A stretch of DNA of 64,000 nt from Patescibacteria group bacterium (GTDB lineage Bacteria; Patescibacteriota; Dojkabacteria; J137), in contig CAUJCN010000002.1 of the NCBI GenBank assembly GCA_963169855.1, positions 267,288-331,287 on the forward strand, written 5' to 3'. This document shows positions 12,484 through 46,970 of this stretch, piece after piece; positions within the stretch are counted from its first letter, which is position 1, and each line of letters opens with the position of its first letter. Made by a program: the position numbers and the translations under genes. The notes under the pieces were generated by a model. That model searched no databases. It had not been told where the DNA came from and saw nothing but the letters and a program-made list of their open reading frames with translations.

Positions 12484-12503
12484 CAAATACTGCGGGAGGG
12501 AGT
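12484..12503 (-). repeat. 19-nt direct duplicate of the 3' end of the adjacent tRNA-Leu(UAA)
   Basis: 'aaatactgcgggagggagt' at 12485-12503 equals 12591-12609, which is the acceptor 3' strand plus T-stem of the tRNA. It lies 90 bp beyond the tRNA 3' end. Confidence 0.6.
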
Positions 12504-12593
12504 TCCCCCTTCGCTCCGCTTCGGAGGACAGGCTTCTCCTCCATTAATATTATGCAATTATTCTTTAGGAAGTTTCAAGTTCTGAAGATAAAA

Positions 12594-12677
12594 TACTGCG
12601 GGAGGGAGTCGAACCCTCACGACCTTGACGGCCAGCGGATTTTAAGTCCGCCGTGTATACCATTCCACCACCGCAGC
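12594..12677 (-). tRNA. tRNA-Leu (anticodon UAA), type II with long variable arm
   Basis: Reverse complement reads GCTGCGG-TG-GTGGAATGGTATACAC-G-GCGGA-CTTAAAA-TCCGC-long variable arm-GAGGGTTCGACTCCCTC-CCGCAGT-A. Seven-bp acceptor stem, U33, anticodon TAA. No CCA is encoded. Confidence 0.8.
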
Positions 12678-12733
12678 ATTTTGAACGAAAGTAAATTTCG
12701 TAAGGAGATTATATCGCAAATTTAGGAATTGGA

Positions 12734-33561: not shown

Positions 33562-34017
33562 CTACACTTGAATACCGTAAGCCAATTTTAATTCTACTGG
33601 TAGATTGTAATCTGCTATCCAGACTCTTCTGTCTCTTTTTTCGATTTTTACAGGTAATTTTAGAGGTTCTGGTGTACCAAATTTAAATAGTGTTGCGTAT
33701 CTTTTCCCTGACATTCTTTTAGTAACTCTTTCAACATGAGCTTCATCTACCATCCCTATTTCTTCCATAACATTCAAAAAAATATCTCTAATTTGATCAG
33801 GATGTATGATTTCAAGAAATTCTACTTCTGTGACTGGAATTCTGCCAACAACTGGACCTCCGGTTTCTTTAATGTAAATATAATCTCCAGCATTCAATTT
33901 TTTATAAGGAGCAATTCTGTTATAACTCCATTTAATATCTAAAGTTTTCTCTCCGTTCATCATAAGATCTATGTAATCTCTGCTTCGATTTCTGGAATAA
34001 ATTGCTAAATGATTCAT
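33562..34017 (-). CDS. ASCH (PUA-like) domain protein
   Basis: 151 aa. 'DLMMNGEKTLDIKWSY...LNAGDYIYIKETGGPVVGRIPVTEVE' resembles the ASCH beta-barrel (GxKxxExR-like motif). Confidence 0.45.
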   Translation of the reverse strand: MNHLAIYSRNRSRDYIDLMMNGEKTLDIKWSYNRIAPYKKLNAGDYIYIKETGGPVVGRIPVTEVEFLEIIHPDQIRDIFLNVMEEIGMVDEAHVERVTKRMSGKRYATLFKFGTPEPLKLPVKIEKRDRRVWIADYNLPVELKLAYGIQV

Positions 34018-34018
34018 A

Positions 34019-34264
34019 CTATTTGAACTTAATATTATCTTGTATTATTTTAATTCTTTCGTGCAACTCTTGCATACGAATTGAAAAATCTACTGCAGAT
34101 CTATTTTCTACGCTTATACTAGCCATTGCATTCCCTATTTGACATGACTTATGAATATCGTGACCTTCTAATAAACCTGAAACAAATCCCGATCTCCACA
34201 TATCTCCTGCTCCAGTTGGGTCCACAACTCTTGTATTGAAAGCAGAATTTCCATCGTATTAGTC
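34019..34264 (-). pseudogene. remnant of a PfkB-family carbohydrate kinase (C-terminal ~80 codons only)
   Basis: Contains PfkB signature 2, '...NSAFNTRVVDPTGAGDMWRSGFVSGLLEGHD...' (DTxGAGD). Only about 33 nt separate it from the next gene, so the N-terminal ~220 aa of a normal PfkB kinase are absent. Confidence 0.55.
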
Positions 34265-34837
34265 TTCAAAAATACGTCTGTACTCTTTTGCAACCAATCT
34301 TCTCATTAACTCGGCTTTGCTTATATCAAGTTCTTCACAAAGTTGTTCTAGTTGTTTTAGAGTTGTTGATCTTAAAATAATGTTGAATCTTTTTTTTGGA
34401 GGTTCAAGATTTTCTATGTATTTTTCCAATACGAGTGCCAAATCTTTTACTGTCTTATAGGTTTTTACTGTAATCATATCTTCACCATATGAAAGCAAGT
34501 TATCTGGGAAATTTTTATACTCTTCTTCTCTTATGACACAAATGACAGGAACTTTATTTTCCAATGCCATTATTGTTTGCAAGAAAACAGTCCTCGATTT
34601 TTCAGAGAACTCCGCTACAATAAAATCAACAGATCTTATAAGTTTATTTGTCCCATCTACAAGTGTTTTCATTTTTGCTTCGAGATCGCTTTGCTCCATT
34701 GGATAATTATCAACTAACCACGGCTGATACATTTCTAATCCCATACCTCTTAAAGTAGAAGCAATAGTTTTGTATGTATCGATATTTCTATCTAGGTTTT
34801 TAATTGTAGCTACTAAAGCAACCTTATTTGGTCTCAT
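34259..34837 (-). CDS. nucleoside 2-deoxyribosyltransferase-like domain fused to C-terminal ribbon-helix-helix (CopG/Arc-like) domain
   Basis: 192 aa. The N-terminus 'KVALVATIKN...LVDGTNKLIRSVDFIVAEFSEKSRTVFLQTIMALENKVPVICV' resembles the NDT/flavodoxin-like nucleotide-binding fold. The C-terminus 'FNIILRSTTLKQLEQLCEELDISKAELMRRLVAKEY' is an RHH motif. Confidence 0.4.
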   Translation of the reverse strand: MRPNKVALVATIKNLDRNIDTYKTIASTLRGMGLEMYQPWLVDNYPMEQSDLEAKMKTLVDGTNKLIRSVDFIVAEFSEKSRTVFLQTIMALENKVPVICVIREEEYKNFPDNLLSYGEDMITVKTYKTVKDLALVLEKYIENLEPPKKRFNIILRSTTLKQLEQLCEELDISKAELMRRLVAKEYRRIFED

Positions 34838-35645
34838 CTTTATAAAAGTAATTAAATATTAGATAGTTATAGAGTCTATGTGGAAGAAATCTTTTAGCCC
34901 ATAAGATTCTTCTGTCTCTTTTCTGAAAAAAGTAGTTATCTCTTGGATTATTCATTAACCAGATTAACTCTCTAGCAGCTTGCTCTGAAGTAACATAATC
35001 CTTAAAAAAGAATCTAAAACGTCTTTTCCAAGATTCATATAAAGTTGAGTAAGCTGTTTGTGCAATGTTACCACTTTCCTTAATATTTTTTCCAAAACTG
35101 CTATAAACACTTCCTGGCGAAAATATACTGATTTGAATTCCGAAACCTCTTACTTCATTTCTTAGTACGTTACTTATCTTATCCAAAGCACTTTTCGTTG
35201 CTGCGTAAAATCCCAGAGTTGGTGTATCGACAACTGATCCAATCGAACTCACATTAATAATATGTCCGCTATTACTTTCTCTCATTGAAGGTAGTACTTT
35301 TTGAATTAGCTGAATGGGTGCAATAACATTAACGCTTAATTGCGACTGCATTTCAGCAAGATCCATATCCTCTACAGTACTACGAAAGGCAAAACCTGCA
35401 TTGTTTATTAAAATATCTATTTTGTTATAATCTTTTAATACTTTATCTAGATTTTTAGAAGCTCCAACAATATCATTCAGGTCGATTTCAAAGAATTTAT
35501 AATTCTTTACTGAAAATTCTTTTATATTGTTCCTTCCTATTCCTAGAAATAAGTAGTCAGAAAATTGCGAACACGCAATCCTTATGAAAGATTCACCTAT
35601 TCCACTACTTACTCCTGTTATTAATACAACTTTTGAGTAACTCAT
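34824..35645 (-). CDS. short-chain dehydrogenase/reductase (SDR)
   Basis: 'VVLITGVSSGIGES' (TGxxxGIG) and 'YAATKSAL' (YxxxK). Confidence 0.8.
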   Translation of the reverse strand: MSYSKVVLITGVSSGIGESFIRIACSQFSDYLFLGIGRNNIKEFSVKNYKFFEIDLNDIVGASKNLDKVLKDYNKIDILINNAGFAFRSTVEDMDLAEMQSQLSVNVIAPIQLIQKVLPSMRESNSGHIINVSSIGSVVDTPTLGFYAATKSALDKISNVLRNEVRGFGIQISIFSPGSVYSSFGKNIKESGNIAQTAYSTLYESWKRRFRFFFKDYVTSEQAARELIWLMNNPRDNYFFQKRDRRILWAKRFLPHRLYNYLIFNYFYKDETK

Positions 35646-36574
35646 AAACTTTTAGCTAGATCGTAAAGTATTCCACTTGAAATATTATTATTACTTGGAA
35701 CAATTATTCTACAATTTAGATACTCTGAAATCTGAAATATATTCATTAAGGCTTTATCAGCCGCCCACATATAGTATGGTTCTTTTTCATACATTGGCAT
35801 TCTATCTTCGTAGGAAAGTGCGATAATCTTATCGTACAAAGGTCTTAGCTTTGCTACATCTATTGAGTAAGGATGATCTCCTTGCAATCCTTCTCTATCT
35901 TCCAAATCCACATTCATAGTTTCTAGAAATTCAATAATGTTTGTAGTTCCATAAACAATCACCTTTGGGTTTCTTTTAGATTCACCTAAACCTTTTAGTT
36001 CCGTTCTAACATAGTCAATCGCTGTTTGTAATTCTTCTGCAGCAGGATGATGACTTTCTGAAAATTCTTCCTGCATAAAATAGGTTCCGCTTTTGAATAA
36101 GTATGTTTCGTGAATCTTGGTATTTTCTCCTATTACAACTTGAACACTTCCTCCTCCAATATCTGCTACAGCTATCTCTTGATCTGGAAAGTCTTTAGAA
36201 ACAGATTCAAATAAAAGTCTTGCTTCATCTTTTTGAGATAGTACTTCTAATTTAATTCCAGTAGATTCTTCTATTCTATTTAAAACTTCTTCAGAATTAG
36301 TGGCTTTTCTAATCGCTTCAGTAGTAACTGCTAAATACTTCTCTACTTTATATTCAGTCATTTTGTCTTTGAACATGTTCAAAGCTTCTATTGTTTTAAG
36401 GATTGATTTCTCGATAATCATGTTATTCGTTTTAGGTAAATCTCTACCCATTACGGTTAATTGTTTATCTTTGTACAGCACTTTAGAATTAAAGTTTTCA
36501 TCGAATTCTCGAATTTCGAATTTCGATTTTAGAGTCCCAACATCAATGACTGCGACAATTTTTTTAGATTCCAT
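35642..36574 (-). CDS. Ppx/GppA family phosphatase (exopolyphosphatase / pppGpp phosphohydrolase-like)
   Basis: 310 aa with an actin-like ATPase fold: 'VAVIDVGTLKSKFEI' (phosphate 1) and 'IAVADIGGGSVQVV' (phosphate 2). Confidence 0.6.
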   Translation of the reverse strand: MESKKIVAVIDVGTLKSKFEIREFDENFNSKVLYKDKQLTVMGRDLPKTNNMIIEKSILKTIEALNMFKDKMTEYKVEKYLAVTTEAIRKATNSEEVLNRIEESTGIKLEVLSQKDEARLLFESVSKDFPDQEIAVADIGGGSVQVVIGENTKIHETYLFKSGTYFMQEEFSESHHPAAEELQTAIDYVRTELKGLGESKRNPKVIVYGTTNIIEFLETMNVDLEDREGLQGDHPYSIDVAKLRPLYDKIIALSYEDRMPMYEKEPYYMWAADKALMNIFQISEYLNCRIIVPSNNNISSGILYDLAKSL

Positions 36575-37865
36575 AGAGCATTCTTTTTAATAAATAAAAT
36601 CTTTTCCCTATATCCGCGTTTAGATTTGAACCATAAACAGCATTCAAAACTACATCAGGAAATAGATTGAAAGTTATTCTAAAATCTAACCCTCGGTCGA
36701 TGGTAATTACTTCAAACTTTGTATTGCTGAATTTTATTAATTTCAAAGCACTATTCAAATTTTCCAATCTATTGGGATTCTCTTTGGATTGAAGACATAA
36801 AACAACCTGATCTCCTATATAGTTCTCCCATTCCAGAACATCCTCAATAATATCTCTGACATCAAGACCAAAATATAGAGAGCTTCTTTTAAGGAATTCT
36901 TTGTCAAACTGTTCGTAATTGTCTCTATTTATATGCAGAAAAACTGATGAATTTTCCGGTATATCAGATTTTATTTCTGCCTGAATTTCTTGGAATCCAG
37001 TTAATGTAGAAGCAAAAATATGAACCTGTACGGGAATATGAGAATTGTACTCATTTAAATACTTTAGTACAGATTTCGTTGTATTTAAGTCTGTTTTTGG
37101 ACCAATTACACCTTCAGAAATATCAACATGTACAAGATCTACTCCACTTTGAAGAGCTTCATTTAAAGATTCGCGGTTTTTTTGATTAATGTCTAATGCT
37201 ACAAATCCAATTCCATTTACAACAGGTTTATCCGTATATCCTAACTTATGTACTAATTGTTTTAATTTTGTATAATTTATATTCTCAGTCTTACTTGCAT
37301 TGTCTGATTTGACAGAAGACTGAACATCAAAACCAATTACATTTAACTCTAGATAATTATCAATATTTTTAGCTCCAATTCCTCCAGCTAAAAATATTTT
37401 ATTTGAATCTATTTTTTGTAAAAGACTCATAGCATTTTCTTTACCAATTTCTAATCCTGTTCCACCCATAAATGATTTATCAAGGATTACATAATCTGCA
37501 TCATCTGATATAGTAAAACCTAATGATTGTGTAGATACGACTTGGAAAATTATTAATCCTTGCTCGAATTCTGTTCGCAGTGCCCTTATTTGTGGGTACG
37601 AATCTTCATAGTGTAGCTGTACACCATCAAACTCAAACTCCTTCACCAGTTTCTTAATTACAGAAATATCTCTTTCTTTTGTTACCAAAATAGATTTAGA
37701 TTCTTTATAGTAATTTTTAAGTTCTTTTGTGCAAGCTTTAATTTGATGCATTCTTAAAAAATCATTGTCAGAGATAAGGTGATAACCTAAAAATGGCACC
37801 TGCATTCTACCTAGCGTCCTAGTTTCATATATATTTTTAACATTACATACTTTTAATTTTTTCAT
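36564..37865 (-). CDS. two-TIM-barrel fusion protein: phosphoribosylanthranilate-isomerase-like N-half + ribulose-phosphate-3-epimerase-like C-half
   Basis: 433 aa. The N-half 'DGVQLHYED...DYVILDKSFMGGTGLEIGKE...FLAGGIGAKNIDNYL...GFDVQSSVKS' resembles TrpF. The C-half 'GVDLVHVDISEGVIGPKTDLNTTKSVLKYLNEYNSHIPVQVHIF' resembles RPE. Confidence 0.4.
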   Translation of the reverse strand: MKKLKVCNVKNIYETRTLGRMQVPFLGYHLISDNDFLRMHQIKACTKELKNYYKESKSILVTKERDISVIKKLVKEFEFDGVQLHYEDSYPQIRALRTEFEQGLIIFQVVSTQSLGFTISDDADYVILDKSFMGGTGLEIGKENAMSLLQKIDSNKIFLAGGIGAKNIDNYLELNVIGFDVQSSVKSDNASKTENINYTKLKQLVHKLGYTDKPVVNGIGFVALDINQKNRESLNEALQSGVDLVHVDISEGVIGPKTDLNTTKSVLKYLNEYNSHIPVQVHIFASTLTGFQEIQAEIKSDIPENSSVFLHINRDNYEQFDKEFLKRSSLYFGLDVRDIIEDVLEWENYIGDQVVLCLQSKENPNRLENLNSALKLIKFSNTKFEVITIDRGLDFRITFNLFPDVVLNAVYGSNLNADIGKRFYLLKRMLYGI

Positions 37866-38551
37866 TCAAAAATATTAATATTTAAGAAGTTAGCATCGTA
37901 TTTAGCTTTAAAGAAAACAGCGTTGATATTATCGGAAAACTCTCTATCAATCAGGTCATCGTCTCCTATGTAACTTACAGATTTGAATTTAGTTTTCCCA
38001 GTACTTTTTAATAACTGATCAAAAGCAAATCGATTCGGTTTATCTACCAATACTCTATTCTTATACATATCTTCTTCTCCAATAATTATTTCGAAAAAGT
38101 TAATTAATCCTGTTTTATACAAATACGCTGAAATGATTGTTTTCCTTGATGATGAAATTATTGCCAAAACATTTTCAGTATCTTCAACCAAAGTTTCTAG
38201 AAAATCAATAATTCCATTTCCCAATCTTGCAACTGCGTTTTCAGTCTTATCTTTAAGAATTGATGTGATAGTATGGCTTTCTTTTATATCCATAATTCCT
38301 TTAGCGATACTATTAATATCGGTTGTGTTAAAGTAACTTATAAGACTCTCGAAATCTTCTCTGCTTCTTGTTATTCCAGATTGGATTCTTCTATAGCTAT
38401 CGAATCTTTCTTTAAGACCTTCTTCATAAGGAAGAAATGCATTAAGTCCTCCGTGGATATTTAATTGTTTCATTGTCTTTTCCCAACCTTGTCGGTGGTA
38501 GTCAGAACTTTTTGCGATTGTTCCATCAAAATCGAATATTATTAGGTTCAT
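37862..38551 (-). CDS. HAD-superfamily hydrolase (phosphatase)
   Basis: 'MNLIIFDFDGTIAKS' is HAD motif I (DxDGT). 'SYIGDDDLID' is a motif-IV-like element. Confidence 0.75.
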   Translation of the reverse strand: MNLIIFDFDGTIAKSSDYHRQGWEKTMKQLNIHGGLNAFLPYEEGLKERFDSYRRIQSGITRSREDFESLISYFNTTDINSIAKGIMDIKESHTITSILKDKTENAVARLGNGIIDFLETLVEDTENVLAIISSSRKTIISAYLYKTGLINFFEIIIGEEDMYKNRVLVDKPNRFAFDQLLKSTGKTKFKSVSYIGDDDLIDREFSDNINAVFFKAKYDANFLNINIFE

Positions 38552-39855
38552 ATATCTAAAATAACTGAGTCTGAATAAGCATTGGTCATTAACTTCTCAA
38601 TTCTTCTTTTCATTTTGTCGAATGTTCCGTGTTTATTTGTATAACTGTCTTTAGTATATGTACTTACATAATCTGATAAATATCCGAACAAACTATTTGC
38701 TGCCACCAAAGGATTTATTCCTCCATGATCTTTCCTTGTTAGATGATGATACCTATGACTAACCTTGAAGGTGTTACATGCAAGAAAAATTTCTTCAATA
38801 TTTTTAGGTAAGAAATTTACCAGGATATCTACGGTTCTACCAGTTGATATCGAGTCGTCAAGAATCAGTACTCCAGTTGAAGATTTCAAATGTCCTCCCT
38901 GAAAAAATGGAGAAATAGAGTACTTAATACTGTCTACATATCTACTTCCTGTATTTGAGTAATTCGATAGGTTCAAAGTTATAAAGTTAAGTTGCGATTT
39001 TCCTACAAATTCACGATACGCATTTATAATAAATGGTAGTTCTATCCCTCCGTACTCTACGCCAACCATTAGTGTGTCAGGACGAATAAATTCATTAGAA
39101 ACTTTTTTCGCTAGGTGAATCATTTTTGCAAAGTTATCCGCTTCTCTGCTCTTTCTAATTAGTTTATGTTGAATCTTTTTATTTCTTTCTACAGAAGGTA
39201 GTCTTTTAGATGTATATTCATAAACCGCTTCAATAACAGAAATAAAGTTTTCAATTCCATCTGGTAAATAAATTTTTTTAGTCAAATATGTTTTTGTAAA
39301 CGAGAATTCTATAACTCCAATTAGAGACAAAAGTTTATTATATTCATTCACTGATAAAGATTCTTCATCTATATAACCCAATTCTCTTGAGATTTGGTTT
39401 AATGCATAAAGCGAAATAAACAAGTAATTTTTTAGATTGTCCAAAAATCCTAGGTACAATATAAAGTTTTCATCTATACTAACTGACTTTAAAGTGTTTA
39501 TGTAACTTTTTAATGAGTCGAATACTTTCTCAAGCTTGATTTGATTTGCTTCTTTAACCATACCAATATAGTATTCTAAGCCCCGCAATAAGTACTTTTT
39601 ACCCAATTGAATAGTTCTATTTTTATACTTCAGACCGAAGAAGAAATCTTTAAGCACTGTATCTCCTATATACTGTAACTCTCTTTCCTGAATAACAAAT
39701 GCACCGCTGTCATAAACAAAAGAAGGGGTCTTTATTGAGTCACTTGCGGATGAGATTGAGCTTTCGATTGTTGAGTAGCGCTCTTTATAACTACTCCAAC
39801 ATACTTCAACAATTTCTGAAGGTATGTTTATTTTATGTCCTCTGATGTTTTTCAT
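38548..39855 (-). CDS. protein with C-terminal type-I phosphoribosyltransferase domain and uncharacterised ~280-aa N-terminal domain
   Basis: PRTase PRPP-binding motif 'GVLILDDSISTGRTVD' preceded by 'LMVGVEYGGIELPFI'. The N-terminal domain has no recognised motif. Confidence 0.55.
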   Translation of the reverse strand: MKNIRGHKINIPSEIVEVCWSSYKERYSTIESSISSASDSIKTPSFVYDSGAFVIQERELQYIGDTVLKDFFFGLKYKNRTIQLGKKYLLRGLEYYIGMVKEANQIKLEKVFDSLKSYINTLKSVSIDENFILYLGFLDNLKNYLFISLYALNQISRELGYIDEESLSVNEYNKLLSLIGVIEFSFTKTYLTKKIYLPDGIENFISVIEAVYEYTSKRLPSVERNKKIQHKLIRKSREADNFAKMIHLAKKVSNEFIRPDTLMVGVEYGGIELPFIINAYREFVGKSQLNFITLNLSNYSNTGSRYVDSIKYSISPFFQGGHLKSSTGVLILDDSISTGRTVDILVNFLPKNIEEIFLACNTFKVSHRYHHLTRKDHGGINPLVAANSLFGYLSDYVSTYTKDSYTNKHGTFDKMKRRIEKLMTNAYSDSVILDI

Positions 39856-39974
39856 AGGAAATATACCTTCTTATACATTTTTTGTATAAAATTTTTTATG
39901 TATTATACATGCTTTAGAAATATATGCAATACGCAAATCCTTTAAATACTGCAATTTTCGTAAATTTGGAAGAT

Positions 39975-40847
39975 TTATAAGTTGTTAGTCAAAATGTGAA
40001 GATTTTGCACAGATTGAATTACTTGGTTCGAACCAATATCAAATTCTACCCAGAAGTTTAAAACCATAACTTCTTTCACTATCTGAAAAAGCACCAAAAG
40101 CTCTTCAATATGCGAAACATTAAACAAAGTTTTCAGCTGAGAAAGCAAATCAGATTCATAAATTCCTATTTGACCAAAGTTTTTAAAAAATTGAGCAAAA
40201 TCTATGACACCTATCGAATTTACAGCATTAGCCCAATCAATTATCCTAATATCATTACCGTTGAATAAAATATTCTGATTTTCAAGATCATTATGATCTA
40301 GCACTGTAGGGAAGTTTTTGGTTTTTAAAGATTCAAATTTTCTCAGAATCCACTTCTCTTTTTGAAAAAGAGATTCAAGATTTATTTCTTCTCCATAATT
40401 CTTTAGATTTTTCAGAGGATTTTGTAACATCCAAACAATGTGTTCATCAAACTTAACGGTTTTACTTTTTAAATTGTCCTTAAAGTATTTGTACTTGTTG
40501 ACAATCCAATTGAATAACAAATTCTTAGTGTGTTCTGAATAGTATTCAGGCTCCCAAAAACCCTTACAGAACTCTATTATTAACACATTCTCATCTCCAA
40601 AGATAAACGCAGGAGTATTTAAATTATTATGACTTAGATACTTTTGATAAATTTCTACTTCTCTTTTTTGCCAACCATGAAAAAACTTAGCTATGAATTC
40701 TTGTTCTGGTATTGAGACCTTAAATGTATCAGCTGTCTTGCTAGTTTCCTGTCTGGAAAGACTAGTATTTAAAGGATTAATGTTGAATGGAATTCTTCTC
40801 TCCGTAGATAACTTCGTTAAATAGGAAAGGAATTTATCTGACTCCAT
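39975..40847 (-). CDS. kinase-like fold phosphotransferase (APH/choline-kinase family)
   Basis: 'VLDHNDLENQNILFNGNDIRIIDWANA' corresponds to the HxDxxxxN...IDxE catalytic and Mg loops. Confidence 0.6.
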   Translation of the reverse strand: MESDKFLSYLTKLSTERRIPFNINPLNTSLSRQETSKTADTFKVSIPEQEFIAKFFHGWQKREVEIYQKYLSHNNLNTPAFIFGDENVLIIEFCKGFWEPEYYSEHTKNLLFNWIVNKYKYFKDNLKSKTVKFDEHIVWMLQNPLKNLKNYGEEINLESLFQKEKWILRKFESLKTKNFPTVLDHNDLENQNILFNGNDIRIIDWANAVNSIGVIDFAQFFKNFGQIGIYESDLLSQLKTLFNVSHIEELLVLFQIVKEVMVLNFWVEFDIGSNQVIQSVQNLHILTNNL

Positions 40848-41679
40848 ATTTTTTCAATATTCTCCCGATCGGAGTTTCTCCAGCTACAGATAAATTTGTG
40901 TACTTTTCAATTAATTCATCGTACCAAGTCTGCTCTTCCCACTCTTCCACACCAGTATATTTGTTTTTTAAATATTCCAGATTACTTATGATTACATCGT
41001 AACCAGCATCGTTGCAAACTCCTGCTTCTCCATATAATCTTGTGTAATTTACTAATACTAATGGAACATGAACTATTCCTTCAGGAAAATTTCGAGCAAG
41101 CTGCAAACTATAATCGTAATCTTCAAAAAGAGATAAGCCTGTATCCCATCTTGCTTTACTTTGAGCTGTCTTTTTTAGAACCATTCCGTTGGGATCTCCT
41201 TCAAATGTATGATTCCATAGATTTGAACTATTAGGATCAGCTTTATATGAAGATTCTTCTTTTAGTAATCGAGGGATTTCATTTTCTAGGATCATAATGC
41301 TAAAGTTCATATTAGGATAAGCAATTACAGCTCTAGAATCTGATCTTAGTTTGTTTACCATTATGCTTAACCAGTTAGTCAAAACTGTATTGTCACTATC
41401 TAAATAAGAAATGTATTCTCCTGTTGCATGTTCTAATCCAAATTGCCTGGCACCGGCTGCTCCCTTTGACCCCTTATTTGTAAGATATTTAATTCGAGTA
41501 TCAATAACGAATTCTCTCATTAATTTACGAGTATCGTCTGTAGAATTATCATCAACTATAAGAAGCTCCCAATTAGTATAAGTTTGTTGTTGGACACTAA
41601 GAATTGATTTCCAAATAGAAAATGCTCTATTAAATGTAGGCATTATTATCGAAACCTTTTCATCAATTGAATCTGCCAT
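40834..41679 (-). CDS. glycosyltransferase family 2
   Basis: 'VSIIMPTFNRAFSIWKSILSVQQQTYTNWELLIVDDNSTDDT' (GT-A with DxD). Also 'YLDSDN'. Confidence 0.8.
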   Translation of the reverse strand: MADSIDEKVSIIMPTFNRAFSIWKSILSVQQQTYTNWELLIVDDNSTDDTRKLMREFVIDTRIKYLTNKGSKGAAGARQFGLEHATGEYISYLDSDNTVLTNWLSIMVNKLRSDSRAVIAYPNMNFSIMILENEIPRLLKEESSYKADPNSSNLWNHTFEGDPNGMVLKKTAQSKARWDTGLSLFEDYDYSLQLARNFPEGIVHVPLVLVNYTRLYGEAGVCNDAGYDVIISNLEYLKNKYTGVEEWEEQTWYDELIEKYTNLSVAGETPIGRILKKYGVR

Positions 41680-41721
41680 TTTTAATTTTAATCACCCTAA
41701 TTATACATTAATTGTATAAAA

Positions 41722-42420
41722 TCACATTTCTAATATTTGGATATTTCTTGGATAATATAGGTCAACGTATTTTCTTATAGGAATTCCCCTATTTTCAATT
41801 TCCTCAAGATCTGAATCATTTAGTAGACCATAAAGCGCTTCTGCGATCTCAGAATCAGAATCTGCTGTATGAACTAAATTTCTAATAAGAAGAGGTACCG
41901 TATTAGAGTATTCTTCTTCTGTCATACTTTTCAATTCCTCTTTGTCATAATATGGTAAAGGATCCATAAAAGCGCCTCGCAATCCCGTAGGGACAACTCT
42001 CACATTTCCACTATTATCTTTTTGTAAAGGCAAGCCTTTTAAGCTTTTAAGCACTTCATCTAGCTCTCTTTTAGATGAATCTGATTTTATGAGAAAGAAC
42101 ATTAAAGGGCCGTTATATTCTGCCATCATTATTGGATATTGGCGTTTTCCTCGAAACTCTCTATAAAAAATGTCTAGGATACTATTTGAATTGTAAGGAG
42201 GACTCGAAATATCTCTAAAAAAACTTTTTACTATAGTTACTTTGTTTAATTTATCCTTTATTAATTTGGGAATTTCAAGGGTTTGTAATAATACAGCATT
42301 GTTTCCGCTTAATAGACTTTCTACAACAGGAACCAAACCTTGAGATAATGCGTCTGGTTTTAAGATCATCAATCCGTAACTTTCCTCTTTTTCTTGTTCT
42401 AACTTAAGGTTTTGATCCAT
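41722..42420 (-). CDS. nucleoside-diphosphate-kinase-like protein
   Basis: 'GLMILKPDALSQGLVPVVESLL' resembles the NDK N-terminus (IKPDG..RGLVGEII). 'NLVHTADSDSEIAEAL' resembles the catalytic-His region NIIHGSDSVESAEKEI. At 232 aa it is longer than a canonical NDK. Confidence 0.4.
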   Translation of the reverse strand: MDQNLKLEQEKEESYGLMILKPDALSQGLVPVVESLLSGNNAVLLQTLEIPKLIKDKLNKVTIVKSFFRDISSPPYNSNSILDIFYREFRGKRQYPIMMAEYNGPLMFFLIKSDSSKRELDEVLKSLKGLPLQKDNSGNVRVVPTGLRGAFMDPLPYYDKEELKSMTEEEYSNTVPLLIRNLVHTADSDSEIAEALYGLLNDSDLEEIENRGIPIRKYVDLYYPRNIQILEM

Positions 42421-43694: not shown

Positions 43695-44027
43695 TTAGTA
43701 ACCTGCGTTTATGTCCTCCGCAAGCACTGATGCGATTGCCACTGCAACAACCCATATCACTACAATCCCCACCGCTGCCGCAAATATTGGCAGTAGGAAA
43801 AAGTAGTAAAGAGCGATAATGTTGAGGTGCAGGACAAACTTTATGAACTGTAGCGACTCCACGGTCACGCCGAGAGCCACAGACTGCAAGACGACTAGCA
43901 AGTTGATGCCCAAGAACAAGATGAGAGGGTTCTTGATGGGTTTGGAAAAAAATCTTCCAACCCACGCAGGTATGAAACCCCACAACCATTCGAGGATATC
44001 CAGCAAAACCATCAGCTTGTCGTTCAT
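43695..44027 (-). CDS. small integral membrane protein (3 TM) encoded in a GC-rich islet
   Basis: 110 aa. Strong SD 'ggaggt' lies 6 nt upstream of ATG 44027. Local GC is about 48% against a ~34% background. The overlapping frame 43672..43989 (Cys/Arg/Gly-rich) is rejected because it lacks an SD. Confidence 0.55.
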   Translation of the reverse strand: MNDKLMVLLDILEWLWGFIPAWVGRFFSKPIKNPLILFLGINLLVVLQSVALGVTVESLQFIKFVLHLNIIALYYFFLLPIFAAAVGIVVIWVVAVAIASVLAEDINAGY

Positions 44028-44299
44028 GGTAACCTCCTATGCTTCTTCCGGATGAAGACAGCTTCTACCCTACCGTATAGAGAAAAAGCTGCCTTCATCT
44101 TTTCAATTTTAGATTGTTAAAGACCACTTAGTTTGCTAAGCGCAGATAGCTTTTGGAGCATATCTATTGGTACATCTGGTGGCTTTTCAGCACACAAAAT
44201 GTATATACTAATTATATCATATTTGTTGCCGAATTTAAGTGTCAATAGTAATTCTTTGCCTCCATTTTCTTGACCAGATAAGGCTGCACTCAATATAAT

Positions 44300-44641
44300 A
44301 TGTTACTAAATTTTAATAACAGAACTATGGAACAGTTAGCAGAAAGCATCTTAAATACAATCACAAGTAGTGGTGTTGAATTCACATCTACGATAACTAG
44401 AACTGGTGATACTTTCGAGGTAACACTTACATGCACAGATGGTTTGCATGTAATTTTCGAAGGCATGGGCGAACCTCAAAGAGAAATTACAATCTCTTTT
44501 AATGAGTTGAGAATAATAAACAACAAAGCTACTTTTGCTCTTGAACACACTTCTCCGTTTGGAAAAGTAATTACATTTGTTCAAGTTGTTGGATTAGATA
44601 CAGAAAATCCTGAAGTTGTTTTTGCTCCAACTGAAGTTTAA
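44300..44641 (+). CDS. hypothetical small protein
   Basis: 113-aa ORF. No motif. Confidence 0.35.
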   Translation: MLLNFNNRTMEQLAESILNTITSSGVEFTSTITRTGDTFEVTLTCTDGLHVIFEGMGEPQREITISFNELRIINNKATFALEHTSPFGKVITFVQVVGLDTENPEVVFAPTEV

Positions 44642-44651
44642 GAAAATTATA

Positions 44652-45125
44652 CTAGTGGAAGGAAATTTCTCTTCCTTCCGATCTTTCTATCAAAGCTTCA
44701 AGTTTTGGACCGACTTTTCTTTTGAAAGCTTCATAAGTTGGAGAAGCACCTAATGTTTGATCAAATGGAATGTTTGGGACAGACTCTGCAGAAATACTAA
44801 ACAAGAAATCCCTCATATTGGGATTGTTAGTTATCATTAGATTTGCGATCCAACCGCCTTTATAAAATTTTCCTTTATCGCCTGGGTGTCTAAGCTCTAC
44901 TCCAAAGACAGATGCAAACTCTGAAGCATCACCTTCGTAAAGTATGTGCTGGTCTAAGAAAGCAATATCAAATCCAAAAGGATCTTCAAGAAGGGAAAAT
45001 TCATGCGAGCTTCTAACTTGAGTAACATTTAAATCGCGCTGAGGAACACTAAGTAGTTCGGACAGATACCTTTGAATCAACAAAGGTTTAATCTCTCCGT
45101 CTTCAACTATTAACACTTTTATCAT
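44652..45125 (-). CDS. hypothetical protein with degenerate receiver-like N-terminus
   Basis: 157 aa. 'MIKVLIVEDGEI...FDIAFLDQHI' recalls the start of a REC domain, but the rest does not match. Confidence 0.35.
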   Translation of the reverse strand: MIKVLIVEDGEIKPLLIQRYLSELLSVPQRDLNVTQVRSSHEFSLLEDPFGFDIAFLDQHILYEGDASEFASVFGVELRHPGDKGKFYKGGWIANLMITNNPNMRDFLFSISAESVPNIPFDQTLGASPTYEAFKRKVGPKLEALIERSEGREISFH

Positions 45126-45143
45126 TGCCTATGTTTTAAATAC

Positions 45144-45201
45144 TACCGACAGGACTCGAACCTGCACAGAATTGCTCCCACTACCACCTCAATCCTTGTA
45201 A
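45144..45201 (-). pseudogene. tRNA 3'-fragment (anticodon-loop-to-3'-end homolog of tRNA-Leu), abutting the 3' end of tRNA-Leu(GAG)
   Basis: Minus strand reads 'ATTGAGGT-GGTAG-TGGGAGCAATTCTG-TGCAGGTTCGAGTCCTGT-CGGTAGTA'. Its T-arm (18 nt) is identical to that of the adjacent tRNA. It is too short (61 nt from the preceding tRNA end) to be a complete tRNA. Confidence 0.5.
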
Positions 45202-45287
45202 TGCTGCGAACAGGACTCGAACCTGCACAGGATTTAATTCCCACAACGACCTCAACGTTGCGCGTATACCAGTTCCGCCATCGCAGC
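45202..45287 (-). tRNA. tRNA-Leu (anticodon GAG), type II
   Basis: Minus strand reads GCTGCGA-TG-GCG-GAACTGGTATA-CGC-G-CAACG-TTGAGGT-CGTTG-(17-nt variable arm)-GCAGGTTCGAGTCCTGT-TCGCAGC-A. Seven-bp acceptor stem, U33, anticodon GAG. No CCA is encoded. Confidence 0.7.
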
Positions 45288-45483
45288 ATTACAAGGACAG
45301 GGTCCGCTTGTATGCCACTTCTCTACCTGTCTCTGACAGGCGCCACGGCAGCATAGATCTATAATGAATTATACTATATGCCAATACAAATCTAAGCATT
45401 TTACTTAACCCTTCTGTAAAAGGGCTTTAAAAATTCACTCAAATACTGTAAAATCCATATGCTTACTTAAGTGAAGGATTGGC

Positions 45484-45560
45484 GGAGTGGTAGCTCAACT
45501 GGTTAGAGCATTCGCCTGTCACGCGAAAGGTTGAGGGTTCGAGTCCCTTCCATTCCGCCA
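45484..45560 (+). tRNA. tRNA-Asp (anticodon GUC), CCA encoded
   Basis: GGAGTGG-TA-GCTC-AACTGGTTA-GAGC-A-TTCGC-CTGTCAC-GCGAA-AGGTT-GAGGGTTCGAGTCCCTT-CCATTCC-G-CCA. Classic D-arm, anticodon GTC. Confidence 0.8.
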
Positions 45561-45591
45561 ATTCTTTACTAGATTGTATTCTCAGAAGAAT

Positions 45592-46845
45592 TTAAATTTC
45601 AGCAGTTGCATTAATCTTGTTTACAAGCCTTATCACAGTTTCTGTTGTAAGCTGATCTATATCGTAATCATCGGCAACTCCCATAGCTTTTGGATTTAAA
45701 CTCGGACCTGAATTAGCTTCGAGGAAGTACCAAGTTCCATCTACATGTTGCATGAAATCAATTCCCAAAATTGGATACATGTATCTTAATCTATGCGCTA
45801 CTTTTTTAACCACCTCTCTTACTAGTTCTGGAACTCTAGGTTCTTTTAAATCGATGCCATGAGCAGTCAATACAGATTGATAATTAAGATTTTGAAAGTT
45901 ATCCGTCTCTTCTGGATTTATATACATGCTTTCGATGATTGTAACTTCACCGCCCTGGATTCTGTTGGACAAGAACTTCCTTCTTGGAATGTAAAGTGGA
46001 CTTCGAGGATCGTGAAGTCTTTTGGACATTTCTGCGCTATTATCTGATCCCCAACTCACAGTTTTCCATTCTGTTTCTGTATCTTCAAATTCCTGATACT
46101 TTGTTGCATGAATTTGCCCATAGTGCACATCTCCGAGAACATCAACAACAACTCTAAGAGTTGTATTAAACCGATCTGCAGGACCTTCAATATATTCTTC
46201 CACTCTTGTAACCTCCCTAATCGTTGTACTATCCAAAGCTTCTTTAGGTTTAAGTCCACCTCTTTCAACTTCATCTCGATATATTTTCATTGTTTTTTGA
46301 TTAAGCCACATATGATCTCCCATTGTTACTCCATCCCACTTGCTCATTGCAGAGATTATACTTTCTCGCTTTTTCGCCACTAACTCTAGCAATTCAGGAT
46401 GCCGAGGATCTGTATAACTTGTTAAAGTTTGGCCAAGAGAATCCCAAATTAAATATCTCATCATTTCTTCGTATGATTTCACTACTACTTTTCCATATCC
46501 ACCATTTGCATTTACATTCTTAAGAATAATTGGCTTTTGTGGAAATAGGCCGGGATTTAGAATAAGTTTCTGCAGATCATAAGTTTTTGGCATCTGGACA
46601 CCCAGCTCTTTAATAGCTATACAAAGATCTCTGTGATGTTCTCCTAGTCTTTCTGATCCGTAAGCATTAAGAACATCACTGTGAAACCCAAATTCTCCAA
46701 AAGTGGACTCTGCCTTACCATCCTGTACTCGATGTACAACATTTAAACCCATTGAAGATCTTGTTTGCGCAAAATATCTGTCTGGACTTTGCTTTAATTC
46801 ATCAGTAGGTTTTACTTTTTCAGCTTGCGCATTAAAAATAACCAT
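45592..46845 (-). CDS. ATP-grasp-like domain protein
   Basis: 417 aa. C-terminal 'YPILGIDFMQHVDGTWYFLEANSGPSLNP' resembles the ATP-grasp catalytic loop (RimK/GshB-like). The rest is uncharacterised. Confidence 0.4.
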   Translation of the reverse strand: MVIFNAQAEKVKPTDELKQSPDRYFAQTRSSMGLNVVHRVQDGKAESTFGEFGFHSDVLNAYGSERLGEHHRDLCIAIKELGVQMPKTYDLQKLILNPGLFPQKPIILKNVNANGGYGKVVVKSYEEMMRYLIWDSLGQTLTSYTDPRHPELLELVAKKRESIISAMSKWDGVTMGDHMWLNQKTMKIYRDEVERGGLKPKEALDSTTIREVTRVEEYIEGPADRFNTTLRVVVDVLGDVHYGQIHATKYQEFEDTETEWKTVSWGSDNSAEMSKRLHDPRSPLYIPRRKFLSNRIQGGEVTIIESMYINPEETDNFQNLNYQSVLTAHGIDLKEPRVPELVREVVKKVAHRLRYMYPILGIDFMQHVDGTWYFLEANSGPSLNPKAMGVADDYDIDQLTTETVIRLVNKINATAEI

Positions 46846-46970
46846 ATAGCTTTCAATATATCGTGATTATAGCATGCTCAGTAATTAGTATGATTGTTTT
46901 AGTTTCAATACTTGCTCAAACCATCTCAATCCGCTAACATCTATTTAGTAATACTTTTAAAGATTCTCAT

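What the first reader, a model, noticed from the sequence alone, without database searches (positions are those of the whole stretch)
45139..45360. tRNA-Leu(GAG) flanked by a 9-bp inverted repeat, a tRNA 3'-fragment and an upstream segment able to complete that fragment's acceptor stem
Leader 'CCTTGTAAT' and trailer 'TTACAAGG' are perfectly complementary. Together with the discriminator they would extend the acceptor stem of tRNA-Leu(GAG) into a ~16-bp helix.

Immediately 3' lies a 58-nt tRNA fragment with an identical T-arm but a different acceptor 3' strand ('CGGTAGT').

Upstream of the tRNA, 'GCTGCCG' (plus strand 45344-45350) can pair 7/7, including two G-U pairs, with that orphan 3' strand. 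It is followed by a perfect hairpin 'CCTGTC-AGA-GACAGG'.

Possible readings:
- A remnant of a site-specific recombination event into a tRNA gene (att-like partial duplication).
- A disrupted ancestral tRNA into which tRNA-Leu(GAG) was inserted.
- A processing helix for the tRNA precursor.
Basis: seen in the sequence. Interest (0 to 1): 0.5.

Follow-up and report, generated by a model that had tools for sequence, protein, structure and literature searches.

The report
tRNA gene nested inside older tRNA
A complete leucine tRNA gene sits inside the broken anticodon loop of an older leucine tRNA gene with the same anticodon, in a small-genome (CPR/Patescibacteria) bacterium. It is clamped by a perfect 17-base-pair stem, which gives a snapshot of how an essential tRNA gene was replaced where it stood.

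Summary
On the minus strand, tRNA-Leu(GAG) (45202-45287) is flanked by perfect 10-nt inverted repeats. Together with the acceptor stem these make a 17-bp helix. A 52-nt tRNA 3' half (45141-45192) follows, and a decayed tRNA 5' half (45292-45352) precedes.

Three related genomes (IMPDH about 81% identical, Dojkabacteria-like CPR) carry one intact tRNA-Leu(GAG) at the syntenic spot, behind the same promoter. Its body matches the window's outer 3' half at 44 of 45 positions. So a resident gene was split at its anticodon loop by a second, different, complete tRNA-Leu(GAG).

The outer halves are relics. They do not form a recognisable tRNA even when joined, and no ribozyme or integrase lies nearby.

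The helix is not peculiar to this locus. The neighbouring tRNA-Asp has a 13-14-bp leader-trailer helix that sequesters its CCA end and is kept in the relatives. In 689 other tRNA contexts, helices of 8 bp or more occurred only in CPR genomes.

One of those, a Saccharibacteria tRNA-Val, has the same nested layout.

How the inner gene was inserted, and which enzyme handles the helix, remain inferred. I rate it a new variant of a known kind, of moderate interest.

The parts
45368..45373 (-). -10-like TATAAT box, about 15 nt upstream of the outer 5' half. It is the presumed promoter of the whole unit.
   Evidence: Read from the sequence. Relatives have TGTATAAT at the equivalent place upstream of their single tRNA-Leu(GAG). 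The consensus scan did not call it, because the -35 element is weak.
45292..45352 (-). Outer (resident) tRNA-Leu(GAG) 5' half, decayed. It holds the acceptor strand GCTGCCG (45346-45352), TGGCG, an inserted hairpin, the D-loop-like GAAGTGGCATA, and the anticodon-stem strand plus loop start CTGTCC-TTG (45292-45300).
   Evidence: It aligns to the 5' 35 nt of the relatives' tRNA with 32 matches, 3 mismatches and 26 gap columns in about four insertions. A 14-nt block is 86% identical to the inner 5' end (D3). Rfam finds nothing here.
45326..45340 (-). Perfect hairpin CCTGTC-AGA-GACAGG. It is part of a roughly 19-nt insertion in the D-arm region of the outer 5' half.
   Evidence: Seen (it is predicted in the minimum-free-energy fold). 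It is absent from the relatives' tRNA.
45288..45297 (-). Left arm of the inverted repeat (TCCTTGTAAT), the 5' leader of the inner tRNA. Its first six bases (TCCTTG) are the resident gene's own anticodon-stem end and loop start.
   Evidence: I2: 17-nt arms, 100% complementary. Compare CTGCC-TTG in the relatives.
45202..45287 (-). Inner, intact tRNA-Leu(GAG). It is class II, has A73 and no encoded CCA. It is the presumed functional gene.
   Evidence: ARAGORN. Rfam RF00005 at 51.7 bits, E = 1.3e-9. D-, anticodon- and T-arm sequences identical to a Patescibacteria tRNA-Leu(GAG) in L098; D-loop, acceptor stem and variable arm differ. The acceptor stem GCUGCGA is 6 of 7 identical to this genome's tRNA-Leu(UAA).
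45193..45201 (-). Right arm of the inverted repeat (TTACAAGGA), the 3' trailer of the inner tRNA. Together with A73 (45202) it pairs with the leader.
45141..45192 (-). Outer (resident) tRNA-Leu(GAG) 3' half: anticodon loop TTGAGGT, GGTAG, variable arm, T-arm, acceptor strand CGGTAGT and A73.
   Evidence: The body is 44 of 45 identical, without gaps, to the relatives' tRNA (46 of 52 when the acceptor strand and A73 are included). Rfam gives a 5'-truncated tRNA hit at 13 bits, E = 1.4.
44652..45125 (-). Orphan 157-aa ORF that starts 15 nt after the outer 3' half. No terminator-like site lies in between, so it is probably co-transcribed.
45470..45570 (+). Comparator: the divergently transcribed tRNA-Asp (45484-45560). 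Its leader (45470-45483) pairs with the discriminator, the CCA and the trailer (45557-45570), giving 14 contiguous pairs.
   Evidence: (I1).

Best explanation
This is an in-place replacement of a tRNA gene.

The lineage's resident tRNA-Leu(GAG) gene was interrupted in its anticodon loop, at or next to TTG (positions 32-34). The interrupting DNA is about 105 bp and is nothing more than a second, complete, sequence-divergent tRNA-Leu(GAG) gene with a few flanking bases.

The inner gene is now the working one. I infer that it is transcribed from the resident gene's promoter as a precursor of about 230 nt: old 5' half, then inner tRNA, then old 3' half, probably running on into the next ORF.

The two old halves are relics. 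The 5' half has taken up about four insertions, including a hairpin. Joining the halves does not give a recognisable tRNA.

The perfect 10-bp leader-trailer pairing extends the inner acceptor stem to 17 bp. I read it as an RNA-level clamp with two roles (inferred). It lets the inner tRNA fold apart from the homologous outer halves. It also offers a double-stranded handle that must be cut or unwound (by an RNase III-type enzyme or a helicase) before RNase P and a 3' nuclease plus the CCA-adding enzyme can finish the ends.

The left arm of the helix contains the resident gene's own anticodon-stem and loop bases (TCCTTG). The right arm (CAAGGA) must therefore have been copied from it or selected to match it after, or during, the insertion.

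A cognate insert is what one expects to survive in a genome that has one copy of each tRNA gene, because any other insert into this gene would be lethal (inference).

Shown: the anatomy, the orthology of the outer gene, the non-viability of the outer gene, and similar helices and a second nested case in CPR bacteria. Inferred: the transcription unit, the processing role, and the insertion mechanism.
For: Anatomy.

Orthology of the outer gene:
- L123, L198 and L200 share flanking genes with the window: the CcdA-like and thioredoxin-like genes, IMPDH, and (in L123 and L200) the 209/136-aa pair.
- Each carries one tRNA-Leu(GAG) divergent from tRNA-Asp.
- Its 3' body is 44 of 45 identical to the window's outer fragment. 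The inner gene differs in the anticodon stem, variable arm and acceptor stem.
- The promoter and spacer upstream are homologous.

The outer acceptor strands differ from the relatives' but co-vary with each other, with three double changes. They therefore come from one once-functional gene.

The outer gene is dead. ARAGORN rejects the joined halves until about four insertions are removed by hand. Rfam is sub-threshold or silent on the halves.

There is no group I intron or other Rfam family here. No integrase, transposase or phage-like protein was found within about 10 kb.

Fold: the minimum-free-energy structure of the 233-nt precursor shows the nested layout, at -87.6 kcal/mol with z = -3.96.

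The helix is a lineage feature. The tRNA-Asp helix is 95% paired across four genomes, against 37-56% for shifted registers. It includes G-U pairs, which work only in sense RNA, and one G-U to C-G double change. Sequence just outside the arms is not conserved.

Background: of 689 tRNA contexts, helices of 8 bp or more occur only in CPR genomes.

Second nested case: the Saccharibacteria tRNA-Val(UAC) in L083 has an old 5' part, a hairpin, a 15-bp inverted repeat, an inner tRNA and an old 3' part.

Known biochemistry: leader-RCCA pairing inhibits bacterial RNase P until it is unwound (PMC9433436).
Against: Only one lineage of relatives was available, and their three tRNA-Leu genes are identical to each other. 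The ancestral state therefore rests on one outgroup.

The outer 3' half is almost pristine while the 5' half is riddled with insertions. That asymmetry is unexpected if both have simply been decaying, and it could mean the 3' half still does something.

No mechanism that inserts a bare tRNA gene is known. The junctions show only an ambiguous 3-nt TTG repeat.

All three Leu acceptor stems in this genome begin GCUGC. The inner gene is therefore not obviously foreign, and an intragenomic duplication route cannot be excluded.

The covariation support for the tRNA-Asp helix is not statistically significant (248 of 500 shuffles do as well).

There are no expression data. I could not see the rest of the genome, so I do not know whether there is a second tRNA-Leu(GAG), an RNase P RNA or an RNase III gene.
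Confidence: 0.68

Rival explanations
1. Scar of a site-specific integration. A mobile element with a tyrosine integrase recombined in the anticodon loop of the resident tRNA-Leu(GAG), bringing its own tRNA sequence. The element was later lost by deletion, leaving the complete gene beside a displaced 3' half.
For: The 3' fragment starts exactly in the anticodon loop, which is a classical crossover sublocation for integrases (my own knowledge: Williams 2002). Partial tRNA copies made by element integration are common in prokaryotes (PMC9897764). This lineage has other short elements bounded by repeats of tRNA 3' ends. One lies at window 12485-12538. Another is an insertion/deletion polymorphism of about 155-160 bp next to tRNA-Asp in the relatives. 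The neighbourhood is gene-variable between relatives.
Against: Integration gives a host 5' part fused to an element 3' part, then the element, then the host 3' part. It leaves no orphan 5' half. Here a separate 5' half lies upstream, and the inner gene is internally coherent rather than chimeric. Only 9 nt separate the gene from the fragment. The seven-base loop is not shared at the left junction (TTGTAAT against TTGAGGT). No integrase was found within about 10 kb.
Confidence: 0.1
2. No insertion occurred. Tandem duplication or triplication of tRNA-Leu(GAG) was followed by deletions that removed the 3' part of the upstream copy and the 5' part of the downstream copy. The middle copy then diverged or underwent gene conversion.
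For: Partial cognate copies, colinear with an intact tRNA and a short distance away, are frequent in Patescibacteria loci. Some sit in tandem units (L134, L139, L147, L149, L155). All the Leu acceptor stems of this genome start GCUGC, which is consistent with an intragenomic origin.
Against: This needs two independent deletions, each ending in the same anticodon loop. The outer halves belong together, since their acceptor strands co-vary, and they match the relatives' gene. The middle copy differs in the anticodon stem, variable arm and acceptor stem. The relatives show a single copy.
Confidence: 0.1
3. The arrangement is functional as a whole. The inner tRNA acts like an intron that RNase P and RNase Z excise. 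The outer halves then persist as a joined or two-piece tRNA-like RNA. For example, the 3' half could serve as a natural external guide sequence for RNase P, or as a structured 5' UTR of the next ORF.
For: The outer acceptor strands still pair 7 of 7. The outer T-arm and variable arm are intact and 44 of 45 identical to a working orthologue, far better kept than the 5' half. The predicted fold keeps the outer acceptor and T-arm. No terminator lies before the ORF. Patescibacteria do tolerate interrupted tRNA genes, with group I introns in anticodon loops (PMC13011429).
Against: The joined halves are not a recognisable tRNA. There is no ribozyme. The helix has no bulge-helix-bulge motif, and no bacterial tRNA ligation pathway for RNase P/Z products is known (my own knowledge). 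The excess conservation of the 3' half rests on few sites.
Confidence: 0.05
4. The inner tRNA with its inverted repeats is a miniature mobile cassette (MITE-like, or moved as single-stranded DNA). It targets the anticodon loop of its cognate gene and replaces the function it destroys.
For: It has 10-bp perfect terminal inverted repeats. A possible 3-bp TTG duplication lies at the junctions. A second, independent nested cognate pair with a 15-bp inverted repeat exists in a Saccharibacteria genome. The trailer is complementary to the target's own anticodon-stem and loop bases, which could act as a guide.
Against: No other copy of the repeat pair exists in the 64-kb window. The TTG repeat is not placed symmetrically relative to the inverted repeats. 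No transposase was seen. The inverted repeats of the two cases are unrelated in sequence. tRNA-Asp has a similar helix without being nested.
Confidence: 0.05

Closest known systems
Partial tRNA genes left by integration of mobile elements into tRNA genes (att duplications), as reviewed in PMC9897764
   Same: A tRNA 3' fragment lies in direct orientation next to a complete cognate gene. The fragment starts at a classical crossover place, the anticodon loop. The neighbourhood varies in gene content.
   Different: There is no element and no integrase, and the gap is 9 nt instead of kilobases. A matching orphan 5' half lies on the other side, so the complete gene is nested rather than reconstituted. 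The fragment is the older, divergent gene and not a repeat.
Group I introns in anticodon loops of Patescibacteria tRNA genes (PMC13011429)
   Same: The phylum is the same. The place of interruption, the anticodon loop, is the same. The general tolerance of interrupted tRNA genes is shared.
   Different: The insert is a tRNA of 86 nt plus 19 nt of flanks, not a ribozyme, and Rfam finds no intron. The exons no longer encode a valid tRNA.
Archaeal disrupted tRNA genes: split, permuted or multi-intron genes with bulge-helix-bulge motifs (my own knowledge; review PMC4090602 listed)
   Same: tRNA halves lie on either side of an intervening sequence. A leader-trailer helix brings the ends together.
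   Different: The organism is bacterial (bacterial-type AspRS, ThrRS and PBP2). The helix is continuous, without the 3-nt bulges. The halves are decayed.
Processing stems of bacterial rRNA precursors cut by RNase III (textbook knowledge)
   Same: A long perfect helix formed by 5' leader and 3' trailer encloses a mature stable RNA. The proposed role is endonucleolytic release.
   Different: This encloses a tRNA and is 17 bp, which is short for RNase III. No cleavage data exist. Bacterial tRNAs normally avoid such pairing, because it slows RNase P (PMC9433436).
tRNA gene turnover by duplication and anticodon or isoacceptor remoulding (my own knowledge)
   Same: One tRNA gene takes over the role of another that has the same decoding function.
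   Different: Here the replacement sits physically inside the gene it replaces.

Membership tests
att-type tRNA fragment from integrase-mediated element integration | Complete and partial copies lie at opposite ends of an integrated element that encodes an integrase | tested here: not met
   Only 9 nt lie between the gene and the 3' half. Pfam and PHROGs scans of the ORFs tested within about 10 kb show no integrase or transposase.
att-type tRNA fragment from integrase-mediated element integration | The fragment is a near-identical direct repeat of the corresponding part of the complete gene | tested here: not met
   The outer 3' half against the inner gene gives 43 matches, 9 mismatches and 2 gap columns. 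It matches the relatives' gene better, at 44 of 45 in the body.
att-type tRNA fragment from integrase-mediated element integration | Only one kind of fragment is left (usually the 3' part), because the host 5' part is reused in the working gene | tested here: not met
   A separate 5' half (45292-45352) lies upstream of the complete gene.
Intron-containing bacterial tRNA gene (group I intron in the anticodon loop) | The intervening sequence folds as a group I ribozyme | tested here: not met
   No Rfam intron family appears at E up to 10 in 44000-46500, nor at gathering score in the window. The insert is itself a tRNA.
Intron-containing bacterial tRNA gene (group I intron in the anticodon loop) | The joined exons give a canonical tRNA | tested here: not met
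   ARAGORN finds no tRNA in the joined halves. Detection returns only after about four inferred insertions are removed.
Archaeal-type spliced, split or permuted tRNA | A bulge-helix-bulge motif at the exon-intron or leader-trailer junctions | tested here: not met
   The helix is 17 continuous Watson-Crick pairs with no 3-nt bulges.
Archaeal-type spliced, split or permuted tRNA | The host has a splicing endonuclease and an RNA ligase | not testable with these tools
   Only 64 kb of the genome is visible. The lineage is bacterial.
Miniature inverted-repeat transposable element | Terminal inverted repeats | tested here: met
   There are 10-nt perfect repeats beyond the acceptor stem.
Miniature inverted-repeat transposable element | A target-site duplication directly flanking the repeats, and several copies in the genome | tested here: not met
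   The TTG repeat is not symmetric to the repeats. No second CCTTGTAAT...ATTACAAGG pair exists in the window. The rest of the genome was not visible.
Leader-trailer processing helix (RNase III-type substrate) | A continuous helix formed by sequences flanking the mature RNA | tested here: met
   A comparable helix surrounds tRNA-Asp and is kept in three relatives.
Leader-trailer processing helix (RNase III-type substrate) | Pairing maintained by compensatory change | tested here: inconclusive
   In the tRNA-Asp helix, 95% of cells are paired, there is one double change and three single-side changes keep pairing. With four sequences the shuffle control is not exceeded (248 of 500). No variation is available for the Leu helix.
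Leader-trailer processing helix (RNase III-type substrate) | Cleavage within the helix in vivo or in vitro | not testable with these tools
   There are no RNA data.

The most novel reading that the evidence does not exclude
Nested cognate tRNA genes may be a recurrent, mechanistically specific event in CPR/Patescibacteria rather than a one-off accident. In this reading a tRNA gene bounded by a leader-trailer inverted repeat behaves as a self-replacing cassette. It lands in, or is copied into, the anticodon region of the resident gene with the same anticodon. The leftover 3' part (variable arm, T-arm and acceptor strand) survives because it still acts as a tRNA-like RNA, for example as a built-in external guide for RNase P.

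Two independent nested cases fit this reading: Leu(GAG) here and Val(UAC) in a Saccharibacteria genome. So do the many hairpin-bearing partial tRNA copies next to intact cognate genes in Patescibacteria loci.
Probability: 0.07. Interest if true: 0.85.

Novelty: new variant of a known kind. Interest (0 to 1): 0.5.

Why it matters
First, it captures the replacement of an essential, probably single-copy tRNA gene at its own locus in a minimal genome. It shows that tRNA gene turnover in CPR bacteria can go through a nested intermediate. I found no description of that state in four targeted literature searches.

Second, long leader-trailer helices that bury the 3' end, including an encoded CCA in tRNA-Asp, run against what is known of RNase P substrate preference. 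Their occurrence only in CPR genomes in my sample suggests a different order or set of tRNA-processing enzymes in this phylum. That is directly testable with the 233-nt precursor.

Third, for annotation, tRNA halves like these are invisible to covariance models (13 bits). They can nonetheless be mistaken for att sites or for introns.

Tried and rejected
(1) ARAGORN with intron and low-score options on the 321-nt region finds only the inner tRNA.

(2) Rfam at E up to 10 on the locus and on each flank alone shows no intron, ribozyme or sRNA family. The 3' half scores only 13 bits.

(3) The genome-contig scan with TTGAGGT-N-GGTTCGAGTCCTGT was too general. The 120 loci were still useful as background.

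(4) The viral scans were uninformative. The inner anticodon arm (CAACG/CGTTG) is widespread and points to no donor. The pattern 'tRNA-Leu(GAG) followed by a second TTGAGGT' has no match in IMG/VR.

(5) The metagenome scan with the tRNA-Asp 3' end returned 37 Patescibacteria loci. None has the tRNA-Asp helix or the Leu/Asp pair.

(6) The 417-aa neighbour is an orphan, so it is useless as a synteny anchor. IMPDH relatives at 72-74% identity have lost synteny. Homologues of the 209-aa protein gave no further Leu locus.

(7) Walking off the window ends added no tRNAs.

(8) I considered a group I intron remnant, a BHB intron and a MITE, and rejected all three (see the membership tests).

(9) I considered that the shared motif GAGAAGCCTGTCC linked the target's hairpin to the elements downstream of tRNA-Leu(UAA) and tRNA-Asp. 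There is no colinear similarity to the target.

(10) The 157-aa ORF and the relatives' 184-aa ORF are not homologous. The apparent inversion of the tRNA pair therefore cannot be bounded.
Full report
WHAT IS THERE

On the minus strand the locus reads, 5' to 3', as follows.
- A perfect TATAAT box (45373-45368).
- GCTGCCG-TGGCG (from 45352).
- A perfect hairpin, CCTGTC-AGA-GACAGG (45340-45326).
- GAAGTGGCATA, then a few more bases.
- CTGTCC-TTG (45300-45292).
- TAAT.
- A complete tRNA-Leu(GAG) (45287-45202).
- TTACAAGGA.
- TTGAGGT-GGTAG, a variable arm, a T-arm, CGGTAGT and A (45192-45141).
- After a further 15 nt, the ATG of an orphan 157-aa ORF.

ARAGORN and Rfam call only the central tRNA (51.7 bits).

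The arms 45193-45209 and 45281-45297 are 17 nt and 100% complementary. That is the 7-bp acceptor stem, the A73:U-1 pair, and nine further pairs.

The 3' fragment shares a 35-nt block (86% identical) and a 17-nt block (88%) with the inner tRNA. The upstream piece shares a 14-nt block (86%) with the inner 5' end (D1-D3).

The fragment is 52 nt, not 58.

IS IT MORE THAN CHANCE?

They come from Verrucomicrobiota, Bacteroidota, Planctomycetota, many Patescibacteria and viral contigs. For each I counted contiguous pairs (G-U allowed) running outward from -1:73.
- 683 have 3 pairs or fewer.
- The exceptions are this genome's three tRNAs (Asp 14, Leu-GAG 10, Leu-UAA 4), the relative's tRNA-Asp, a Saccharibacteria tRNA-Val (15) and a Lloydbacteria tRNA-Leu(CAG) (8).

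The 233-nt putative precursor folds at -87.6 kcal/mol, with z = -3.96 against shuffles. The minimum-free-energy structure is the nested one. It has the outer acceptor pairing, the 5' hairpin, the long inner helix and the outer T-arm.

The Rfam tRNA model gives the 3' fragment only 13 bits (E = 1.4), and gives the 5' piece nothing. The covariance model alone would therefore have dismissed the flanks. The case rests on homology.

WHOSE GENOME

The window encodes a bacterial-type AspRS (short form), ThrRS, PBP2, iPGM and many orphan proteins. Its GC content is 30-41%. The closest named IMPDH relative is from Candidatus Dojkabacteria, at 71% identity. This is a CPR/Patescibacteria bacterium. The same sequence is present in Logan assemblies of ERR106553xx and in an 817-kb NCBI contig.

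COMPARATIVE EVIDENCE

Three contigs from a related lineage are available: L123 (ENA), L198 (GCA_964650085.1) and L200 (JGI). Their IMPDH is about 81% identical. They share flanking genes with the window: the CcdA-like and thioredoxin-like genes and IMPDH on one side (in L123 and L198; L200 begins at IMPDH), and the 209/136-aa pair on the other in L123 and L200.

Between those flanks they carry the same divergent pair, tRNA-Leu(GAG) and tRNA-Asp. The tRNA-Asp promoter and spacer are recognisably homologous (CTGTAAAATCCATATGC). A TGTATAAT box lies upstream of tRNA-Leu.

They have one uninterrupted tRNA-Leu(GAG).
- From the anticodon loop to the end of the T-arm, that gene is 44 of 45 identical, without gaps, to the window's outer 3' half.
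- The window's inner gene differs from it in the anticodon stem (CAACG/CGTTG against CTGCC/GGTAG), the variable arm and the acceptor stem.
- The window's outer 5' piece aligns to the relatives' first 35 nt with 32 matches and 3 mismatches. It needs about four insertions totalling 26 nt, among them the 19-nt hairpin block.
- The outer acceptor strands differ from the relatives' (GCUGCCG/CGGUAGU against GCCGAUG/CUUCGGC) but match each other, with three double changes. They are the two sides of one gene that was functional for some time after the lineages split.

The reading 'a resident tRNA-Leu(GAG) split in its anticodon loop by a second complete tRNA-Leu(GAG)' is therefore well supported.

THE OUTER GENE IS DEAD

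Joining the halves at the TTG gives nothing that ARAGORN recognises. A tRNA-Leu(GAG) is called only after the hairpin and three further inferred insertions are removed by hand. There is no group I intron or any other Rfam family, and no bulge-helix-bulge motif. The ORFs tested within about 10 kb show no integrase, transposase or phage protein.

WHERE THE INNER GENE CAME FROM

Its D-, anticodon- and T-arm sequences are identical to a tRNA-Leu(GAG) of an unrelated Patescibacteria MAG (L098). The anticodon arm itself is widespread, so viral hits say nothing about a donor.

Its acceptor stem (GCUGCGA) is 6 of 7 identical to this genome's own tRNA-Leu(UAA) (GCUGCGG), and the outer gene also starts GCUGC. 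The inner gene is therefore adapted to this lineage. It may come from a close relative or from the same genome.

THE JUNCTIONS

The left junction is ...CTGTCC-TTG|TAAT-GCTGCGA. The right junction is ...TCGCAGC-A-TTACAAGGA|TTG-AGGT. TTG (positions 32-34 of the old anticodon loop) is present on both sides, so the exact insertion point is ambiguous within 3 nt.

The left arm of the inverted repeat (TCCTTGTAAT) begins with the old gene's own bases; the relatives have CTGCC-TTG there. The matching CAAGGA in the trailer must therefore have been copied from the leader, or selected to pair with it. Intrastrand template switching that extends a quasi-palindrome is one known way to do the former. It was not simply brought in with the insert. 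This is an inference from the sequence.

I could not identify an insertion mechanism.
- A tyrosine-integrase crossover in the anticodon loop does not predict an orphan 5' half, nor a left junction that lacks the shared 7-nt loop.
- A MITE model fails on target-site symmetry and on copy number.
- A tandem-copy-plus-deletion model needs two deletions ending in the same loop, and a divergent middle copy.

THE HELIX IS A LINEAGE FEATURE

The neighbouring tRNA-Asp (45484-45560, plus strand) has a leader (AGTGAAGGATTGGC) that pairs with the discriminator, the encoded CCA and the trailer (GCCAATTCTTTACT). That gives 14 contiguous pairs.

In the three relatives the tRNA is identical and the helix persists.
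- 95% of pair cells are paired, against 37-56% in shifted registers.
- It contains G-U pairs, which are possible only in the sense RNA.
- One position changes from G-U (window) to C-G (L198, L200), with a mismatched intermediate in L123.
- Sequence immediately outside the arms is unconserved.

With four sequences this does not beat the shuffle control (248 of 500), so it is suggestive only.

Thirty-seven Patescibacteria metagenome loci with the same tRNA-Asp 3' end lack the helix.

Pairing of the leader with the 3' RCCA is known to inhibit E. coli RNase P until it is unwound (PMC9433436). Such helices therefore imply an extra step, or a different order of processing. I propose that the Leu helix isolates the inner tRNA fold from the homologous outer halves and serves as a double-stranded processing handle. 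Neither role is shown.

A SECOND NESTED CASE, AND CONTEXT

The Saccharibacteria contig L083 carries the same layout on its minus strand.
- A tRNA-Val-like 5' part (4763-4739). It is 21 of 25 identical to the inner gene and 22 of 25 to the tRNA-Val of another Saccharibacteria contig (counted by eye from the sequences).
- An 11-bp hairpin (4738-4714).
- An anticodon-loop-like TTTACAC (within 4713-4701).
- A 15-nt leader arm (4700-4686).
- An intact tRNA-Val(UAC) (4685-4613).
- The complementary trailer arm (4613-4599).
- A 3' fragment that repeats the T-loop-to-end segment and the start of the trailer (4594-4571).

More generally, partial cognate copies lying colinear with an intact tRNA are much more frequent than in the control orientation. 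The 99th-percentile local alignment score is 20-22, against 10.5-11.5 for the control. Most of the examples are in Patescibacteria loci.

Partial tRNA genes from element integration are a known source of such fragments (PMC9897764). Group I introns in anticodon loops are known to be common in Patescibacteria (PMC13011429). The nested cognate arrangement with a clamping helix is, as far as my four searches show, not described.

VERDICT

The best reading is in-place replacement of a tRNA gene by insertion of a cognate gene into its anticodon loop, with the old halves as relics and a leader-trailer RNA helix around the new gene.

My confidence in the whole explanation is 0.68. It is higher, roughly 0.8, for the nested-insertion origin alone, and roughly 0.4 for the helix role. 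The insertion mechanism is unresolved. I class it as a new variant of a known kind, of moderate interest.

Noticed in passing
window 12485-12678 (minus strand): tRNA-Leu(UAA) (12593-12678) is followed about 90 nt downstream by a 19-nt direct repeat of its own 3' end, starting in the T-loop (ACTCCCTCCCGCAGTATTT, 12485-12503). The repeat is preceded by the motif GAGAAGCCTGTCC (12526-12538).
   Followed up: partly
L123 8601-8790; L198 11682-11870; absent in L200 (about 4741-4775): A segment of about 155-160 bp downstream of tRNA-Asp is present in two relatives and absent in a third. It holds the same 13-nt motif GAGAAGCCTGTCC, a repeat of the tRNA-Asp 3' end starting in the T-loop (interrupted by a GC-rich hairpin), and a copy of the trailer. 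It is colinear with the window element at 12485-12538. This looks like a family of miniature elements, or element remnants, tied to tRNA 3' ends.
   Followed up: partly
window 45470-45570 (plus strand): The tRNA-Asp leader pairs with the discriminator, the encoded CCA and the trailer (14 contiguous pairs). The helix is conserved, with one G-U to C-G change, in relatives L123, L198 and L200. It is absent from 37 other Patescibacteria loci with the same tRNA-Asp 3' end.
   Followed up: yes
L083 4571-4763 (minus strand): A Saccharibacteria tRNA-Val(UAC) is nested between an old tRNA-Val 5' part that carries an 11-bp hairpin and an old 3' fragment. It has a perfect 15-bp leader-trailer inverted repeat. 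The inner T-loop reads TGCGAGT, with G at position 55.
   Followed up: partly
L036 1133-1420 (plus strand): A Lloydbacteria tRNA-Leu(CAG) has an 8-bp leader-trailer helix. About 190 nt upstream lies a tRNA-Leu-like 5' two-thirds (acceptor strand, D-arm and an anticodon-like arm with loop CAGAGAT).
   Followed up: no
L147 4111-4137 and 4883-4909; L149; L155; L148; L134 about 3010-3150: In Patescibacteria tRNA arrays, intact tRNA-Leu(UAG) and tRNA-Asp genes lie next to pseudo-copies. These share the first 27 nt exactly, or the 3' three-quarters, but have the anticodon arm replaced by a stable hairpin (TCCCGAT..ATCGGGA for Leu; GGCRCGG..CCGGCC for Asp). In L134 the partial units are tandem, and each is preceded by a TATAAT box.
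   Followed up: partly
L015 4051-4122 (minus strand; Chryseolinea, Bacteroidota): tRNA-Thr-like pseudo-copies lie upstream of the intact tRNA-Thr(CGU), one of them scoring 29.9 bits with Rfam. Their anticodon arm is the hairpin TCCCGAC-CCGA-GTCGGGA, whose stem matches the Patescibacteria pseudo-tRNA-Leu hairpin at six of its seven pairs, in a different phylum.
   Followed up: no
L139 2743-2808; L147 downstream of 3402-3476: An intact tRNA-Val(UAC) and an intact tRNA-Met are each followed by a partial copy of their own 3' part (after 8 nt for tRNA-Val, about 30 nt for tRNA-Met). The tRNA-Val copy starts in the anticodon loop; the tRNA-Met copy starts in the 3' strand of the anticodon stem. Each carries a roughly 20-nt insertion beginning CCCGCC in the T-arm. 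The tRNA-Val case has the same gene-then-3'-part juxtaposition as the target.
   Followed up: no
window 44000-47500 compared with L123 5000-9500: The Leu/Asp tRNA pair is inverted relative to the conserved flanking genes between this genome and the relatives. The genes between IMPDH and the 209-aa gene also differ completely (orphan 417-aa ATP-grasp-like, 166-aa and 157-aa proteins here; GNAT, NUDIX, WbsX-like and a 184-aa protein there). This is a variable islet around the tRNAs.
   Followed up: partly
window 34000-42000: GC content is lower here (0.30-0.32) than in the rest of the window (0.34-0.42). The cluster encodes Ppx/GppA, PRAI-like, HAD, kinase-like and GT2 glycosyltransferase proteins.
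   Followed up: no
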